64,000 bases of DNA. Origin: Octopus vulgaris. Lineage: Eukaryota. The notes beneath the pieces are model-generated. The model made no database searches, had not been told where the DNA came from, and saw nothing but the letters and a program-made list of their open reading frames with translations. The stretch covers positions 28,210,001 through 28,274,000 of the forward strand of contig OX597830.1 of the NCBI GenBank assembly GCA_951406725.2, written 5' to 3'. Every line of letters begins with the position of its first letter. The stretch's first letter is position 1. Both the position numbers and the translations under genes were made by a program. Shown here in pieces: positions 3,442 through 59,828 of this stretch.

Positions 3442-3765
3442 TAATTTTCTTCATTAAAAAATAACACCATAGAGATAGATCGGTAAATGCGTCTGTGCAA
3501 GAGAAACGTCAATAGCGAAGGAAACGTAATGGTTTTTCTAAATGAGAACAGTTTTTACGTATATACGTCCATGAAGCCTTGAAATCATAGAGGGATTGAT
3601 AGCTTTCTGCGCTAAGAGAAGCACGTAGAAGCCTATAACTGTAGTCCACAATGAAGCCATAAATATTCCTGATGATGAAAGAGTAAAGGGAGAAGAAGAG
3701 TAATAATGAGCACATAGGAATAGAAGTAAAAACACGGTAGTCGATATACGAGGAGATTGATAGAC

Positions 3766-3781
3766 AAACAGATAGATAGGC

Positions 3782-3856
<75 letters not shown>

Positions 3857-3893
3857 CAGAGAGACAAACTGACAGATAGATAGACAGACAGAC

Positions 3894-3952
<59 letters not shown>

Positions 3953-3957
3953 CAGAC

Positions 3958-4032
<75 letters not shown>

Positions 4033-4047
4033 TATAGATAGACAGAC

Positions 4048-4135
<88 letters not shown>
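3766..4135. repeat. (GATA/GACA)n and (TA)n microsatellite
   Basis: Direct reading. Confidence 0.95.
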
Positions 4136-4876
4136 TACGAACGGTGGGGGAGAGAAGGAAAAACATGGAAATTTAGAAACGCAAAGAGGGAGTGGATGAG
4201 AGACTTAAAGAGAATGGAATTGTAATTGATGAGAAAAAGAATAAAACGCAAAGAAGTGAATGTAAGTAAAATTTGAATAGCGTTGTTGAAATAAGAATGG
4301 CGGTCTGAATGAATGAGGGACGAAAAACGATCGGAAAAAATCAGTAGGAAAATACCAATAGTATTGTGTACCTCTTTCTGTCTTTTTCTTTCTCCCCCTC
4401 CCTCTGTGTCTCTGTCTCTCTTCCCCCCTAACTTGGTGTCTCTGTCTGTCTGCCTGTCTGTCTGTCTGTCTGTCTCTCTTACTTAAATACGTACACACAA
4501 GCATGGCTACCAACGCACACGAACATGAACGTGTACTCCTTACATCTATTTCCATAAAATCCTATATTCGTTTTTATCTGCTGTCTCTCCTCTCCTCTCT
4601 GTCTATGTATGCATGTACTTATGTATGTATGTTTGTATGTATGTATGTATGTATGCATGTATGTATGTATGTATGTATGTTTGTTTGTATGTATGTATGT
4701 TTGTATGTATGTATATATGTATGTATGTGTGTATGTATACACGCATGTATATGCATGTAAATATAGGTATAAATATAGGTATATATATGTGTGTATAATT
4801 ACATAAGCATTATATATACATACATACTTATATATATATGTGTTTGTGTATGTATTATATAAAATTACATACATAT

Positions 4877-22431: not shown

Positions 22432-22462
<31 letters not shown>

Positions 22463-22487
22463 CTTTATTTTAAGCAGCAGAAAATTC

Positions 22488-22541
22488 AACAAAATCTGTT
22501 ACTCTGAGTTTCTCGTTGCCGTTCATCAGACAGTTTTTGCT
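22488..22541 (-). ncRNA. Minimal type I hammerhead ribozyme
   Basis: Reverse complement of 23591-23644. Confidence 0.8.
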
Positions 22542-23590
22542 AAAATGGAACCGATATATCAATTCAGTCTAGACTCTTACAAACGCTACACCTTTAAAAA
22601 GAAATGGACTTGTTTGATTGGCCCTTTAGAAAAAACGGTCAATCTTCGAGCGATAAACAAAAAGGTCAAAAATATATGTATATATATATAGAAAAAACTT
22701 ATAAAAAATTATAAAATCCGAGGAAAAAAACCTTACATTGAATAAAATACATATTGACGTTAATGAAGAAAGTATAAATTAATTCATAGGAATTAAACCT
22801 GTTATAAATATTACACTGCAATACATATTTTTATTAAAATGTGCATATATATATCAACATACACAAAAGGATGCGCGCCAACGCCATACATATACAGACC
22901 TATGAATATAAATCTAAATATACACATAAATGCATGTGTACATATATTCACGCAAACCATCTCGCACGCAAGTTAAAAATCATGTATGTAGCGATTCTCA
23001 TATACTGAGTAAGGGGGAGGACGAAAGAAAGGAAGAGAGAGAAAAAGGAACGAAGGAGGGGTGGGGAAAAAAACGAATTAAGAAAAAATTATGTATACAA
23101 TCTATGTAACGGCATTATTGGCATATATGGAGACAAGTATACAAACAAGTTCGAATGGATACATACACATACAGTCGTGTATATGTGTGCTTAAGCACAA
23201 ATATACTCTCACTTACACATACACAGATACGCATGCTTACAAATACATATCCTCGACTATACACATACTTACATCAACATTCTAATTTTGAAAACATTGC
23301 TTTTTTAAAAAAAATATTGCTTTTTTTTTAAAGAATGGGTGCATTAATAAAAATATATACGAAAGACATATAAAATAAAATATAACACCCTATTTTGGAT
23401 CATTTATAAATAATCAAGGTAATATAAATAATCAAGGTAATATAAATAATCAAGGTAATCCTATACAATACAATAACCTGAAAACAGGTTGACCGTTTTT
23501 TTCTAAAGGGCCAATCAAACAAGTCCATTTCTTTTTAAAGGTGTAGCGTTTGTAAGAGTCTAGATTGAATTGATATATCGGTTCCATTCT

Positions 23591-23644
23591 AGCAAAAACT
23601 GTCTGATGAACGGCAACGAGAAACTCAGAGTAACAGATTTTGTT
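23591..23644 (+). ncRNA. Minimal type I hammerhead ribozyme
   Basis: Stem I CTGT/ACAG (extended by AGCAAAA/TTTTGTT), CTGATGA at 23603-23609, short stem II CG-GCAA-CG, GAAA, near-palindromic stem III ACTC-A-GAGT, predicted GUA cleavage after 23632. Confidence 0.8.
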
Positions 23645-23738
23645 GAATTTTCTGCTGCTTAAAATAAAGCATATTACTCTACCACTGGTATTTGAGTACT
23701 CTTTTTTCCACCTTGTTTCACATTTATGTGTTTACTCC

Positions 23739-23806
<68 letters not shown>

Positions 23807-29515: not shown

Positions 29516-29550
29516 GATTCTGACGAAGAGCTCCGCTCGAAACGTTAAAT
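29516..29550 (+). ncRNA. Minimal type I hammerhead ribozyme (stem I weakened)
   Basis: CTGACGA-A-GAGC-TCC-GCTC-GAAAC-GTT with loopless palindromic ACGT stem III. The left-arm copy (~28833-28866, minus) is mutated (CCGACGA, GAAT). Confidence 0.7.
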
Positions 29551-38296: not shown

Positions 38297-39659
38297 TTAG
38301 GTTGTCAAGAAATTACTTGCAGTTTTTAATCTTTAAATTCATATGCACATATCTCGGCGCGAAGAAAACTTTATTAATCGAAATAAACACCGTCAGAATC
38401 AACACACTTTTGCCAACGCGAAACAAGTTTATTTATGCTATTAGCGTAAAAATCCTGCGTTCTGGTGGTGATGAAGTCGTTGAAGGCGTGTTTGGCATCG
38501 TCTTGTTTTTTTTTAAACATTTCACACGCAGGAAGTTGTCGAGATGCTTGAAAATGTGGTAGTCGGTAGGCGAGAGGTCTAGAGAGTATGACAGATGAGG
38601 CAGAGTTTCGTAGCCCATTTCGTTCAACTTCTGCAGGGTCATTTGTGCGACGTGCGGTCGAGTATTGTCGTGGAGAAGAATTGGTCCTTTTCTATTGACC
38701 AATGCTGGCTGTTGTCGGAGTTTCTTATGCATTTCCCCCATTTGCTGACAGTACTTCTCCGCCGTAATGGATTCTCCTGGATCTAAAAAGCTCTAATGGA
38801 TGAGACCGGCCGCAGACCACCAAACAGACACCATGATCTTCTTTTGGTGCAACTTTGACTTCCGGAAGTGCCGTGGAGCTTCGTCGGCGTCCAACCACTG
38901 AGCTGAGCGTCGCCGGTTGTCGTAAAGAATCCACTTTTCATCGCAATACATTTACATATACATATATTGTTCTTCTTTGTATTTATAATTTATAGAACAT
39001 CTCAGAAATCTTTGCTTGAGGGATATAGATGTGTAACAGCTATTTACAGGCATTCCATACATTCCGGTCCACCGAAGGGGCCTTCTTGTTGCGTAAAAGA
39101 AGGGATGATGACACTTCAAAACGGTGGTTTTTTTTTTGGTTATCGTTCAACTCGCGCGGCACCCATTTCTCAAGTATTTTTGTTTTTCCAATCTCTTTCA
39201 AGTGGTTGAAAATTGTTGGGGACGTTACGTCTAATTCAGAAGCAAGCTCTCGAACAGTTGTGCGTGGATTGGCTTCGACTAAGGCTCTTAGTTGATCGTT
39301 GTCAATATATAATGGTTGACTGCTACGCTTATCATCTTCAAGACTATCGTCACCGCTACGAAATTTCTTGAACCACAATTGTGCTGTACGTCCATTAGTG
39401 GTTCCTGGGCCAAACGCATCGTTGATATCGTGAGCTGTTTTAGCAGCTTTTCGGCCTAGCTTTTTGTCTATGGTGTACTCAATGTTCCGGAAAAAATGGC
39501 CTAATTATTCAAAAAGAAAAAGAGTAACACAATTAAATAGAGCGAAAAACGGGTTATAAAATCGTATATAAAGTTAAGTAATTTAACGAAAATTAATTTG
39601 AAAATACATCATTTAAAACCAAAATTAAAAATTCCGCAAGAACTTACTTGACAACCTAA
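38297..39659 (-). pseudogene. Full-length inactive mariner (Hsmar1/cecropia-like, D,D34D)
   Basis: TIRs TTAGGTTGTCAAG / CTTGACAACCTAA; remnants WFKKFRSGD, KWVPREL, CDEKWILYDN, LLHDNTRPH, YSLDLSPTDYH; stops, frameshifts and a 116-bp insertion. Confidence 0.92.
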
Positions 39660-48899: not shown

Positions 48900-50520
48900 T
48901 TTCTGCTACGTCAAAATTCAAATCTCAACAGGGATTTGAAAATAGACAGAATATAAAAAAAAAGCTTTACCTTTTATAATCCTAGGTCGATGGAAAAGTA
49001 TCAATCAAGTATGAAATTTAAGTAGTTACCGAACGAATGGCTTTGTGCATATGTTAGAAATTCTTGTATGTTATAATCTGCTGGTAATGACCGGTTTTCC
49101 AGTGTTTCTCCGTAAATAATGCTAACTATGATGCAAAAGAAATTACAAAATCTTTATCATTAACAAAACATGTTCGAGCGTTATATTTTAATCAGAATTA
49201 TAAATGGGACGGATTTGAAGACAATCGAAGTGAAACAATGTAAGATTGATCTAAATATTTATGCCTGATCATTGAAATAAGTACATTTGTAAAACATGAA
49301 ATTTCCTCTTGGCTTGCAAATTATTATTATTATTATTTGAAGGAAGGAGGCGGACTGGAAGAACCATGAGAACCATGGACAAAATGCTTAACAGTTTTTA
49401 TTTTAAGGCGATGAATTGGGGGAATCATTAGCGTGTCAACCAAAATGGATAAAGACATTTCTACCGACTCTTTATATTCTGATTACAAATTCCGCCGAGG
49501 TAGGCTTTCCATTTTTTCCTTTCAAGGGCCTGAAATACATAACTGTTTAACAGATTTTTAAAGAACTATTTATTAACAAAATGGTACTGATGTGGTGAGT
49601 TGTCAAAACCCGTAAAGCGTCTAGAAATAATTTGTAATATTTATTTCCGCTCTTTTCCGTTCTGAGCGCAAATTCAGCTGCTGTCGACTTTACCTTCTAT
49701 TCTTTCTATTGCAAAGTATCAGTTGAGTACTTTGATCGACAGAATTGACTAACCGCTGTCATATCTCAAATGACCTGTCTTTTTGCCTAAATCAGAATCC
49801 ATTATGACTGAAGTACAGCGATTATTAGTTTGAGTTCATATATTAACAGCTTCCATTTTGACTTAAGTCACAGTTTTCTACTTGAATAGTTCTTCCTATC
49901 TTACTAATGGACACAACTTCAGCAATTTCGACGGAAGTAGATTAGTCGATTCAACCGACACCTTTAGCTGATTGGTACTTTATCGAAAGGATATAAAGCA
50001 AACATAATCTGGTGGGATTTGAAAGTAAAGTATAGGAGGGAGCAAGAAATATAGCCCACCACATTTTGCCAATGTTTTAATGGTACTCCCATCTCACGCA
50101 TCTTAACAATTCTGGTGCGGTACTTTGCGTGAGATTGGAACTGTTAAGGTAATGTATTATTCAGCCTCGACTGGTACAATTCCTCCAACGTAAGCTTCAA
50201 ATTTGCTCTTAACTATTATCATGTTGAAGGCGGCAAACCGGCAGAATGGTTACAACGGCGGACAAAATGCTTAGATGCATTTCATCCGTCTTTACGTTCT
50301 GAGTTCAAATTCTACCTAGGGTTATTTTGTCCTTCATTCTTTCGAAGTTGATAAAATAAGTACCATTATTTACATTTGACGGATATTTGTCCTCATCTTC
50401 TTTGTTATTAACACCATCTTTCGGCTGATATACCATCCAGCCTTCATCAGTTGGGTCAGGGAAATCGATTTAGCCCCTTCCCACGAAATTACTGGCCTTG
50501 TGTCAAGATTTGAAGCCAAT
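48900..50520. mobile_element. Cluster of old family A SINE copies in both orientations; the last (50227-50520) is interrupted by a PLE-like fragment
   Basis: Repeated degenerate B-box/core motifs (CAAATTCCGCCGAGG, GTCGACTTTACCTT). Confidence 0.65.
50366..50450 (-). mobile_element. PLE-like terminal-repeat fragment with partial HHR, inserted in a SINE
   Basis: Minus strand CTGATGA-A-GGCTG-N10-CAGCC-GAAA; stems I and III degraded. Confidence 0.6.
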
Positions 50521-58560: not shown

Positions 58561-59025
58561 AGCAGGGACTGAAAATCGATTCAAACATACTTCGAATTTC
58601 GAATAAAATTTCTTGGCCAATATTTGCTAAACGCTATAGGGGAATTTGCACTGTCCAAAGATACAGTCCCGGAGATGTACAGCTTTACTACAAGAGATAA
58701 TTACACGAAAGCTTCCTGCTTAACCCTACTCTGCTATGCATAGCTACGAAATGCTACAAGGTGACAGTAACATGGGGAACTAAATTATTCTATGTTGAAT
58801 CAAAATCAGCCTATGAGCTCCCGCTTTGAAGGACATGTTAGCGTTTAAGGTCATGAGAGTGTCTCCTTATCTAAATGTCCCGATGTAGAAAAATATAGTG
58901 CATGTCGTTCTGGCTTCTCTCGAACTCAGATATATTAGCGACACTGGATATATTAATACCAAGAGATGATAGTTATGCTCATTTAAACGTGGATGTTCTG
59001 TTATGTATATATGTATATATACATA

Positions 59026-59593
59026 TTTATATTATATTGAGGGTACTACTATTCGTAGATACCAACACAAAGATTTTATCCTCAATTGTTAATTTATATT
59101 TTTCCCCGGAATAGTTCAATACTGAATTTTTATTCCGACTAGACAATTTGTTACCGAAATGCATTGCGAATAAGCCCGCCATTTTCATAGATATGTAAAG
59201 ATAAACATTCGTACATGCTACGACGAATTCTACGGTTGGCTATCGAGCTTGTAATGTTATGTTTTCTCTTATATTTCTTGAGTTTGTTGCACTGATGAAC
59301 ATGAAATGCATATTCTGCATTAAATGCGAAATCACATGTGATATGTAACTGAATTCTTTTTTTAAAATGATGTGTTTTGAAGTTTTGCATTCGGTAAAAT
59401 TTTGTTTATTTTTAGTAGTTTTGACCGCATTGGTCCCTCTTAGCGTGTTGGTATCTACGAATAGTAGTACCCTCAATATAATATAAATGAATATTTTCAA
59501 AGAGGAAGAATTTACGGATTTTTTCTCTTACGAGGTTTTTCACGCTGACTACTGATATTTTCTTTTAAAGATTTTATCCTCAATTGTTAATAA
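59026..59593 (+). mobile_element. Retrozyme-like or non-autonomous PLE insertion: 498-nt unit, 25-nt terminal redundancy, 44-bp 5' inversion, candidate 15-bp TSD
   Basis: Direct repeat AAAGATTTTATCCTCAATTGTTAAT at 59069-59093 and 59567-59591; 59025-59068 is the reverse complement of 59445-59488; ATGTATATATACATA at 59011-59025 and 59594-59608; central HHR. Confidence 0.8.
59280..59356 (+). ncRNA. Type I hammerhead ribozyme
   Basis: Stem I GTTGCA/TGTAAC, CTGATGA at 59292-59298, stem II CAT..AATGCA-TATTC-TGCATT..ATG, GAA at 59328-59330, palindromic stem III ATCACATGTGAT, predicted AUA cleavage after 59343. Confidence 0.82.
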
Positions 59594-59828
59594 ATGTATA
59601 TATACATAGATATGTTCATATTTACGCACACACACGTACACCCATCCACACACACATATATACACACATATTTCACTTGCTATGGGTATCTCTGCCGATT
59701 CTTCGATAGAGATTTTAGCCAGCACTGATTTTGTTTCGAAGTTTTGTATCCGAAACGCCTGATGTAAGCAACAACAATGAGATCTCATCTCCCCTGTAAG
59801 TGGATTTGGTAGACAGAAAGAAGCCCCT

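What the first reader, a model, noticed from the sequence alone, without database searches (positions are those of the whole stretch)
59011..59608. Retrozyme-like insertion whose architecture implies a circular or multimeric hammerhead RNA template
Seen: a non-coding 498-nt unit (59069-59566) followed by an exact repeat of its first 25 nt; a type I HHR with intact core in the middle of the unit; a perfect 44-bp inverted copy of 59445-59488 at the 5' junction; and an exact 15-bp flanking repeat. Established: TSDs and 5' inversions (twin priming) mark target-primed reverse transcription, and metazoan non-LTR retrozymes are short HHR-containing repeats that produce circular RNAs. Inference: the inverted piece lies upstream of the unit start only if the template was a circle or head-to-tail multimer, and the unit is permuted relative to the cleavage site. 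This may therefore be a cDNA of a ~498-nt circRNA mobilised by a PLE reverse transcriptase. The TSD is low-complexity, and whether the family is already described is unknown to me.
Basis: partly seen in the sequence, partly recalled or inferred. Interest (0 to 1): 0.85.

Follow-up and report, generated by a model that had tools for sequence, protein, structure and literature searches.

The report
Two-ended Penelope-type hammerhead retrozyme
A 500-base non-coding repeat with a hammerhead ribozyme motif has hundreds of copies in AT microsatellites, and its two mirror-image ends nearly always lie at two different fixed points of the repeat, likely the trace of two Penelope-type reverse transcriptases copying one circular or multimeric RNA.

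Summary
Observation confirmed. The 498-nt unit is one of hundreds of young dispersed copies (315 exact hammerhead matches), most inserted in (AT)n. The hammerhead core is conserved, with compensatory stem changes in a 73%-identical sister subfamily. Copies are head-to-head arms. Inner ends vary. Outer ends sit at two fixed sites, A (59591) and B (about 59488), 103 nt apart. Of 53 end-anchored insertions, 31 pair A with B, one A–A, none B–B. Arms run seamlessly past one unit (15 of 85; up to 2.4 units) and through the cleavage site. Arms of one insertion share variants and stop in a coupled way. But the 'unit start' is only a truncation point, and the inversion is the known Penelope inverted-pLTR-plus-tail build, not L1 twin priming. 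Intact Neptune-like elements here share the target and have two end sites, but no sequence with the unit; the partner is unidentified. Circularity and cleavage are untested. Verdict: new member of non-LTR retrozymes/non-autonomous PLEs, with a useful mechanistic signal. The scan noted a similar build on other DNA (e1-7858806).

The parts
59011..59025 (+). Left copy of the 15-nt AT-rich target repeat (likely TSD; 14-nt palindrome; last base shared with the inverted arm)
   Evidence: other copies sit in (AT)n
59025..59068 (-). Inverted 'B arm': 44-nt copy of 59445-59488 whose outer end is the fixed site B
   Evidence: I18, 100%; same outer end in 215 exact B+(AT)n junctions
59069..59591 (+). Direct 'A arm': 523 nt = one 498-nt unit plus 25 nt; 5' end is this copy's truncation point
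59280..59356 (+). Type I hammerhead motif: core 59292-98 and 59328-30, A-C at the base of stem II, palindromic stem III (59331-59342), predicted cleavage after 59343
59470..59494 (+). Site B: proximal end site (CCTCAAT motif, then AT-rich), inferred RT start of inverted arms; preceded by a predicted hairpin
59489..59591 (+). 'Tail': about 103 nt between site B and site A
   Evidence: compare PMC11167929, PMC3846280
59578..59591 (+). Site A: distal end site (CCTCAAT motif), inferred RT start of direct arms; read-through copy at 59080-59093
   Evidence: 183 exact A+(AT)n junctions; 158 exact read-through junctions
59594..59608 (+). Right copy of the 15-nt target repeat (two extra A at 59592-93)

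Best explanation
This is one copy of a young, non-coding, hammerhead-bearing repeat family of about 498 nt that likely spreads in trans through the RT-endonuclease of a Penelope-like element (Neptune type), which would nick both strands of an (AT)n target and copy one circular or head-to-tail RNA from two fixed internal start sites. Shown by sequence: AT target, head-to-head arms, fixed outer ends A and B, one of each per double-armed insertion, variable inner ends, seamless arms longer than one unit, shared variants within an insertion, no ORF. Inferred: each nick's 3'-OH primes a cDNA, one at B and one at A, 103 nt behind it on the same RNA. The two RT sites of a dimer move together and often stop together, and the cDNA ends are then joined head-to-head. 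Where only one nick is extended, its cDNA end joins the (AT)n directly (solo arms). The RNA is likely transcribed from loci longer than one unit and, by analogy with non-LTR retrozymes, cut by the hammerhead (possibly as a dimer through the palindromic stem III) and ligated to a 498-nt circle. I put circle at about 0.5 against an uncleaved multimer.
For: Copy number: 1754 candidates, top copies 97-99% identical; 315 exact hammerhead matches. End rule: the first 30 of 215 B-anchored loci gave 19 inverted A partners, 10 solo arms, 1 complex, 0 B-B (binomial 19:0, p=2e-6). The first 30 of 183 A-anchored loci (29 insertions) gave 18 B partners, 1 A-A, 3 other inverted, 7 solo (18:2 ends, p=2e-4). 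Same template: shared minority variants between inverted arms 61 vs 7.5 in cross-locus controls, between tandem units 25 vs 1.6; a private 2-nt insertion is repeated at both junctions of L025. Both arms RNA-templated: in 10 of 31 A-B insertions neither arm contains the other. Coupling: inner ends within 16 nt in 9 of 31 (shuffled mean 2.4, p=1.5e-4); the A arm runs past the B arm's stop in only 5 of 31 (shuffled 11.4; 0 of 20000 shuffles as low). Conservation: a 70-78%-identical sister subfamily keeps the unit of about 497 nt, site A in 24 of 25 loci, inverted arms ending at unit positions 389-426 in 9 loci, and a covarying hammerhead with canonical G-C. Driver present: GIY-YIG hits over cut-off with long open frames; a 765-aa RT+GIY-YIG ORF with a C-x4-C-x2-C motif. 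This family also ends on (AT)n at two sites 38 nt apart, and in L130 the short end is on the inverted arm and the long end on the direct arm. In vitro precedent: a Poseidon protein cleaves and extends both strands, starts at two internal sites and is predicted to be a dimer (PMC11167929).
Against: No autonomous element sharing sequence with the unit was found: none among the 40 GIY-YIG loci by blastn (only a separate non-autonomous cousin in L098), no tblastn hit to three PLE proteins. The driver is therefore inferred from target and build only. The window copy is itself an exception to the coupling trend (A arm 523 nt, B arm 44 nt), as are most top-scoring copies, which were selected for long A arms. 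The hammerhead fold is 3.8 kcal/mol above the MFE in the 77-nt segment, and stem III pairs have probability 0.06-0.07 in the folded circular unit; with the fixed A-C pair it may be weak, blocked or dimer-dependent. In PMC11167929 hammerhead mutants did not affect insertion in vitro and unprocessed RNA was the main substrate. Shared variants could partly reflect a common source locus or gene conversion rather than one RNA molecule. The coupling test uses BLAST end points from 31 loci only.
Confidence: 0.75

Rival explanations
1. Same PLE-driven two-site insertion, but the template is a linear uncleaved read-through transcript of loci longer than one unit. Arms over one unit are regenerated by template jumps between redundant ends; the hammerhead is not needed for copying and no circle is the template.
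For: Neptune-like autonomous elements with no hammerhead found by my scan also have partial tandems and inverted arms. PMC11167929 found unprocessed RNA to be the main substrate. Both arms often stop at one place, as at an RNA 5' end. Weak predicted hammerhead fold.
Against: The hammerhead core and stems are kept across subfamilies about 27% apart. No run of three or more same-strand hammerheads among 99 listed places (of 315), so long source arrays were not seen there, yet arms reach 2.4 units. No pile-up of 5' ends at one position. L083 has both arms stopping at the same unit position one turn apart, natural on a circle but a single case.
Confidence: 0.4
2. One cDNA per insertion; the mirror arm is made by fold-back self-priming and resolved at the other fixed site.
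For: 9 of 31 junctions are near-symmetric, several near a small hairpin at unit positions 355-367. Self-priming was proposed for palindromic Penelope junctions (PMC3846280 passage).
Against: In 10 of 31 A-B insertions each arm holds more than 20 nt that the other lacks, which a fold-back copy cannot give.
Confidence: 0.1
3. The copies are 5'-truncated pLTR stumps of an autonomous Penelope element.
For: The build is that of pLTRs with tail and inverted arm. Only 52 of 158 exact read-through junctions and 40 GIY-YIG loci were examined.
Against: All 52 examined junctions continue into the unit itself: 43 have the exact hammerhead 195-230 nt on, the other 9 map to unit sequence. No ORF, no tblastn hit.
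Confidence: 0.07
4. L1-type twin priming at a random internal site, or DNA-level tandem duplication and inversion after insertion.
For: A 5' inversion and a TSD-like repeat in this copy; tandem units share variants.
Against: The outer end of the inversion is fixed at B in two subfamilies. The inner ends are not tied to B. There is no poly(A) tail; ends meet (AT)n.
Confidence: 0.04

Closest known systems
Metazoan non-LTR retrozymes (Cervera and de la Pena 2020, PMC7229834; preprint 10.64898/2026.07.22.740005)
   Same: Short, non-coding, low-GC (31.5%) unit with a type I hammerhead; head-to-tail copies; long TSD where visible; PLEs in the same genome, proposed there as the likely mobilisers.
   Different: 498 nt (above the 150-450 bp of PMC7229834, within the 51-972 bp of the preprint); dispersed partial tandems up to 2.4 units rather than long arrays. 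Inverted arms, a fixed two-site end rule and (AT)n targeting are not described in the text I read ('inverted' and 'microsatellite' have 0 occurrences in the main text of PMC7229834). Circular RNA not tested here.
EN+ Penelope-like element insertions with inverted pLTR and 'tail' (PMC3846280; PMC8557442)
   Same: [quoted passage not shown]
   Different: No ORF; tail about 103 nt instead of 30-40; the one-end rule is counted here (31 A-B, 1 A-A, 0 B-B) and the two arms are shown to be coupled; both end sites share a CCTCAAT motif in this subfamily.
Poseidon of Anolis in vitro (Frangieh et al. 2024, PMC11167929)
   Same: Two internal RT start sites downstream of a hammerhead, bounding the tail; both target strands cut and extended; AT-rich targets; predicted dimer.
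   Different: There the start site is reported as not homologous to the target, and no strand difference in start site was seen in bulk. Here both sites end in AT-rich sequence like the target, and one insertion uses one site per strand.
Non-autonomous Chlamys elements such as MRC1 (PMC8557442 passage)
   Same: Non-autonomous PLE derivatives with multicopy head-to-tail insertions.
   Different: Those lack canonical hammerheads and resemble their autonomous partners at the 3' end; no such similarity was found here.

Membership tests
Non-LTR retrozyme | Type I hammerhead in each unit | tested here: met
   Core near-invariant in 76-82 segments per column; covarying stems; A-C at the base of stem II is atypical; no Rfam hit
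Non-LTR retrozyme | Short non-coding, low-GC unit without LTR or ORF | tested here: met
   498 nt, GC 0.315, at most 47 aa stop-free on the sense strand; PBS and PPT not looked for
Non-LTR retrozyme | Head-to-tail tandem copies with at least two hammerheads | tested here: met
   6 same-strand hammerhead pairs within 1.1 kb among 99 listed places, no triples; arms up to 1216 nt
Non-LTR retrozyme | Self-cleavage of the transcript | not testable with these tools
   Folding only; stem III weak in the monomer, palindrome duplex -15.8 kcal/mol
Non-LTR retrozyme | Accumulation as circular RNA | tested here: inconclusive
   Contigs cannot tell a circle from genomic tandems
PLE-mobilised non-autonomous element | Partial tandem plus adjacent inverted 5'-truncated copy | tested here: met
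PLE-mobilised non-autonomous element | Tail at one end (two fixed end sites) | tested here: met
   31 A-B, 1 A-A, 0 B-B of 53 insertions; tail 103 nt
PLE-mobilised non-autonomous element | AT-rich or microsatellite target | tested here: met
PLE-mobilised non-autonomous element | Sequence shared with the pLTR of an autonomous partner | tested here: inconclusive
   None in 40 GIY-YIG loci out of 6136 first-look candidates, 150 scored; search far from complete
Autonomous PLE | RT and GIY-YIG ORF within the element | tested here: not met
   No ORF, no tblastn hit; 52 of 52 examined junctions continue into the unit
L1-type twin-primed insertion | Variable internal second priming site; 3' poly(A) (definition recalled, from no call) | tested here: not met
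   Second site fixed at B; ends meet (AT)n

The most novel reading that the evidence does not exclude
A Penelope-type RT dimer reads one hammerhead-made 498-nt RNA circle from two start sites at once, B leading and A trailing by 100 nt, rolling past the junction. This would be direct genomic evidence that PLE machinery mobilises retrozyme circles, and it would explain tandem, inverted arm and one-sided tail of PLE insertions as products of a single two-site reaction on one RNA.
Probability: 0.35. Interest if true: 0.78.

Novelty: new member of a known kind. Interest (0 to 1): 0.5.

Why it matters
How PLEs form tandem/inverted insertions with a one-sided tail is stated as unresolved (PMC8557442, PMC11167929). 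That PLEs mobilise non-LTR retrozymes is proposed from co-occurrence and pLTR similarity, not from insertion anatomy (PMC7229834 discussion; 2026 preprint). This family gives hundreds of short young insertions with a countable rule (one A end, one B end, coupled stops), a 500-nt candidate template and intact Neptune-like ORFs in the same genome. The two-site, one-RNA model and the circle question thus become directly testable in vitro. The parts themselves are all known kinds.

Tried and rejected
Rfam: no hammerhead family hit; the E-value hits are microsatellite noise. Single-sequence folding: no significant stability. RNA evidence: no RNA holder listed, i.e. none of 24 listed runs is on record as RNA; no evidence either way. 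Of 4 runs laid, contigs of X1 and X2 (RNA is a guess) and of X16 (kind unknown) bridge the 59566-59069 joint, X6 does not. Genomic tandems hold the same joint, so this does not show a circle. Empty allele: the left flank 58640-59005 is single-copy over its length; its last 75 nt or so belong to an older repeat whose other copies do not continue into the AT tract, so the empty-site question stays open. TSD census: 1 of 47 loci has a G/C-containing shared word; the rest are pure AT or gave none, and a few of the 47 were mis-anchored by my patterns. Partner search: no DNA similarity in 40 GIY-YIG loci; only a loose resemblance between site A and the autonomous distal end, not tested. Pile-up of 5' ends at the cleavage site: not found, 2 of 85; a looser cluster at unit positions 256-301 and one at 355-375 remain unexplained. 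Equal-phase stops one turn apart: only 2 cases (11 vs 9 near-equal when taken modulo 498), too few. The idea that the right 15-mer is element sequence (suggested by BLAST running to query position 598) was rejected: other copies have pure (AT)n there. The scan's earlier notes held no look-alike sequence. Literature searches found no description of this family or of a counted A/B rule. Repeat libraries (Repbase, Dfam), subscription papers and all supplements were not seen; Supplementary Figure S9 of PMC7229834 and the preprint's closed supplements may bear on this.

Full report
Observation. The four features are present as described: a 25-nt direct repeat 498 nt apart (59069/59567), a perfect 44-nt inverted copy (59025-59068 vs 59445-59488), a 15-mer on both flanks (59011-59025, 59594-59608), and a type I hammerhead core at 59292-59343. 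The core pattern alone is not above chance in this window (19 vs 12.1), Rfam does not detect it, and its fold is not unusually stable (z -0.70). 'Unit position' below is window position minus 59068.

The family. G000 (2.8 Gb, 227 contigs) gave 1754 first-look candidates; the 40 scored were led by copies 97-99% identical over query 59-598. Exact patterns count 315 hammerheads, 215 B-end+(AT)n junctions, 183 A-end+(AT)n junctions and 158 read-through junctions; reversed-pattern controls were 0 each. All are lower bounds. In the 30 top loci (29 distinct) every direct arm ends at about unit position 523, site A, and meets an AT-rich tract, usually pure (AT)n. Most inverted left arms end at positions 417-426, site B, and meet (AT)n too. 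Both sites carry CCTCAAT some 7-12 nt before the joint. The 15-mer here is a short degenerate AT tract. It is a plausible TSD, the only G/C-containing one among 47 loci examined, and no empty allele is in the assembly.

End rule. To avoid score bias I took the first 30 listed places of each end pattern. B-anchored: 19 have an inverted A arm as partner, 10 are solo arms joined to (AT)n, 1 is complex (L040), none has a second B end facing it. A-anchored (30 loci, 29 insertions): 18 B partners, 1 A-A, 3 other inverted arms (ending at 387, 393, 264), 7 solo. Six insertions are in both sets, giving 53 distinct: 31 A-B, 1 A-A, 0 B-B, 21 solo, unclear or other. Against free choice of site, p=2e-6 and 2e-4. 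By eye, no two of the 100 listed B ends lie within 2 kb, and one pair of the 100 listed A ends does.

Template. Of 85 arms of 40 nt or more in 52 loci, 15 exceed one unit without a seam (longest 1216 nt), 38 cross the predicted cleavage site, and 2 begin within 4 nt of it; 5' ends are spread over the unit. The template is therefore not a cleaved linear monomer, and 59069 is just where this copy stopped. Arms within one insertion share minority variants: 61 vs 7.5 in controls for inverted pairs, 25 vs 1.6 for tandem pairs (163 segments, 78 loci, duplicates dropped). L025 repeats a private 2-nt insertion at both junctions. In 10 of 31 A-B insertions neither arm contains the other, which excludes fold-back copying as the general route. 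Inner ends lie within 16 nt in 9 of 31 (shuffled 2.4), and the A arm passes the B arm's stop in only 5 of 31 (shuffled 11.4). This fits two RT sites on one RNA with B ahead. No triple of same-strand hammerheads was among 99 listed places (99 of 315). All 52 examined read-through junctions (of 158) continue into the unit, none into an ORF: 43 by an exact hammerhead downstream, 9 by mapping.

Hammerhead. The unpaired core is near-invariant and the A-C pair at the base of stem II is fixed in this subfamily. A sister subfamily, found in L098 with 1650 candidates, is 70-78% identical, has a unit of about 497 nt, ends at site A in 24 of 25 loci, has 9 inverted left arms ending at positions 389-426, and mostly has G-C at that pair. 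On 19 chosen distinct sequences (7 and 12 from the two subfamilies), 95.4% of cells pair, 5 of 24 pairs show double-sided changes, and slid controls pair 22-44%. The number of pairs with double changes is not above the shuffle (238 of 500), and the changes are mostly one event between subfamilies. Stem III is a 12-nt palindrome (duplex -15.8 kcal/mol) but is rarely formed in the folded circular monomer (0.06-0.07). Activity is untested. Dimer-assisted cleavage is reported for axolotl retrozymes (PMC7229834 passage).

Driver. A GIY-YIG search gave 150 scored matches, many in 781-aa open frames. [quoted passage not shown] Its family ends on (AT)n at two sites 38 nt apart; L130 has the short end on its inverted arm and the long end on its direct arm. 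My pattern scan found no hammerhead within it, and it shares no detectable sequence with the unit. The enzyme class is thus inferred from target and build; the partner is unknown. Because such an element also makes partial tandems, tandem build alone does not prove a circle.

Expression. No listed run is on record as RNA, and contigs bridging the unit joint cannot separate a circle from genomic tandems; inconclusive.

Known systems. PMC3846280 (passages) and PMC8557442 (passages) describe partial tandems, an adjacent inverted copy and a 30-40-bp tail often at one end only. PMC11167929 (parts 1-2 of 4) shows two internal RT starts bounding the tail, extension of both strands and a predicted dimer, and finds the ribozyme dispensable for insertion in vitro. 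PMC7229834 (passages and sections 14 and 17) defines non-LTR retrozymes, shows circles in coral, mussel and axolotl, and names PLEs as candidate mobilisers. The preprint 10.64898/2026.07.22.740005 (parts 1-3 of 5) links retrozymes to pLTRs by phylogeny and found cleavage in 1 of 9 tested elements. Other papers were seen as listings only; no supplements were read. Searches showed no account of this family or of a counted end rule; repeat libraries were not available. The L1 twin-priming definition is recalled. One earlier scan note (e1-7858806) reports a similar PLE mirror-arm build in another genome; I did not test it and it is not counted as support.

Verdict. Real, and a new member of known kinds: a non-LTR-retrozyme-like unit inserted with Penelope anatomy. 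What goes beyond the papers read is the strict one-A-one-B rule, the coupling of the two arms, the 103-nt tail, and their conservation across two subfamilies. Confidence 0.75 in PLE-driven two-site insertion from a junction-spanning template; about 0.5 that this template is a circle. Interest 0.5.

Noticed in passing
window 22460-23740: A second, unrelated hammerhead element with the same build: (AT)n flanks, a short inverted arm and a direct arm with a tail of about 70 nt; minimal type I hammerhead motifs at 22480-22529 (-) and 23603-23652 (+); about 830 nt of AT-rich sequence between the arms. Its end sequence recurs in the flanks of L002 and in L095.
   Followed up: partly
window 29520-29550 (+) and 50406-50450 (-): Two more hammerhead-like motifs of PLE type (good stem II; stem I and III not verified).
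   Followed up: no
L121:430-5672, L130 (G000:C16, C2): Young Neptune-like PLE family with two ORFs (346 aa of no clear Pfam family, then 765-aa RT-GIY-YIG), many intact frames, (AT)n target, two end sites 38 nt apart and no hammerhead found by my scan. An upstream ORF differs from the single-ORF description of canonical PLEs in PMC8557442.
   Followed up: partly
L124:1321-2086 and 3718-4483: Another PLE family with a perfect 766-nt inverted repeat around a 574-aa RT-EN frame; very recent insertion.
   Followed up: no
L094, L098, L099, L122 flanks: Further distinct type I hammerhead motifs next to PLE insertions, one as an inverted pair (L099); this genome seems to hold several hammerhead repeat families.
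   Followed up: no
L040/L067/L068 (G000:C1:123329845-123330441): The only A-A palindromic insertion, 206 nt from a 62-nt B arm that shares its variants; possibly one rearranged event.
   Followed up: partly
window 58930-59003: End of an older repeat (246 candidates, mostly 80-84% identical) truncated just before the AT tract that this element entered.
   Followed up: partly
window 39040-39504 (-): A 154-aa stop-free frame that looks like a mariner transposase remnant (resemblance recalled, not tested).
   Followed up: no
runs X1 (organism A), X6 (B), X16 (D): Laid contigs under three organism labels match the unit; one X1 contig carries a variant with several small indels in and near the hammerhead.
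   Followed up: no
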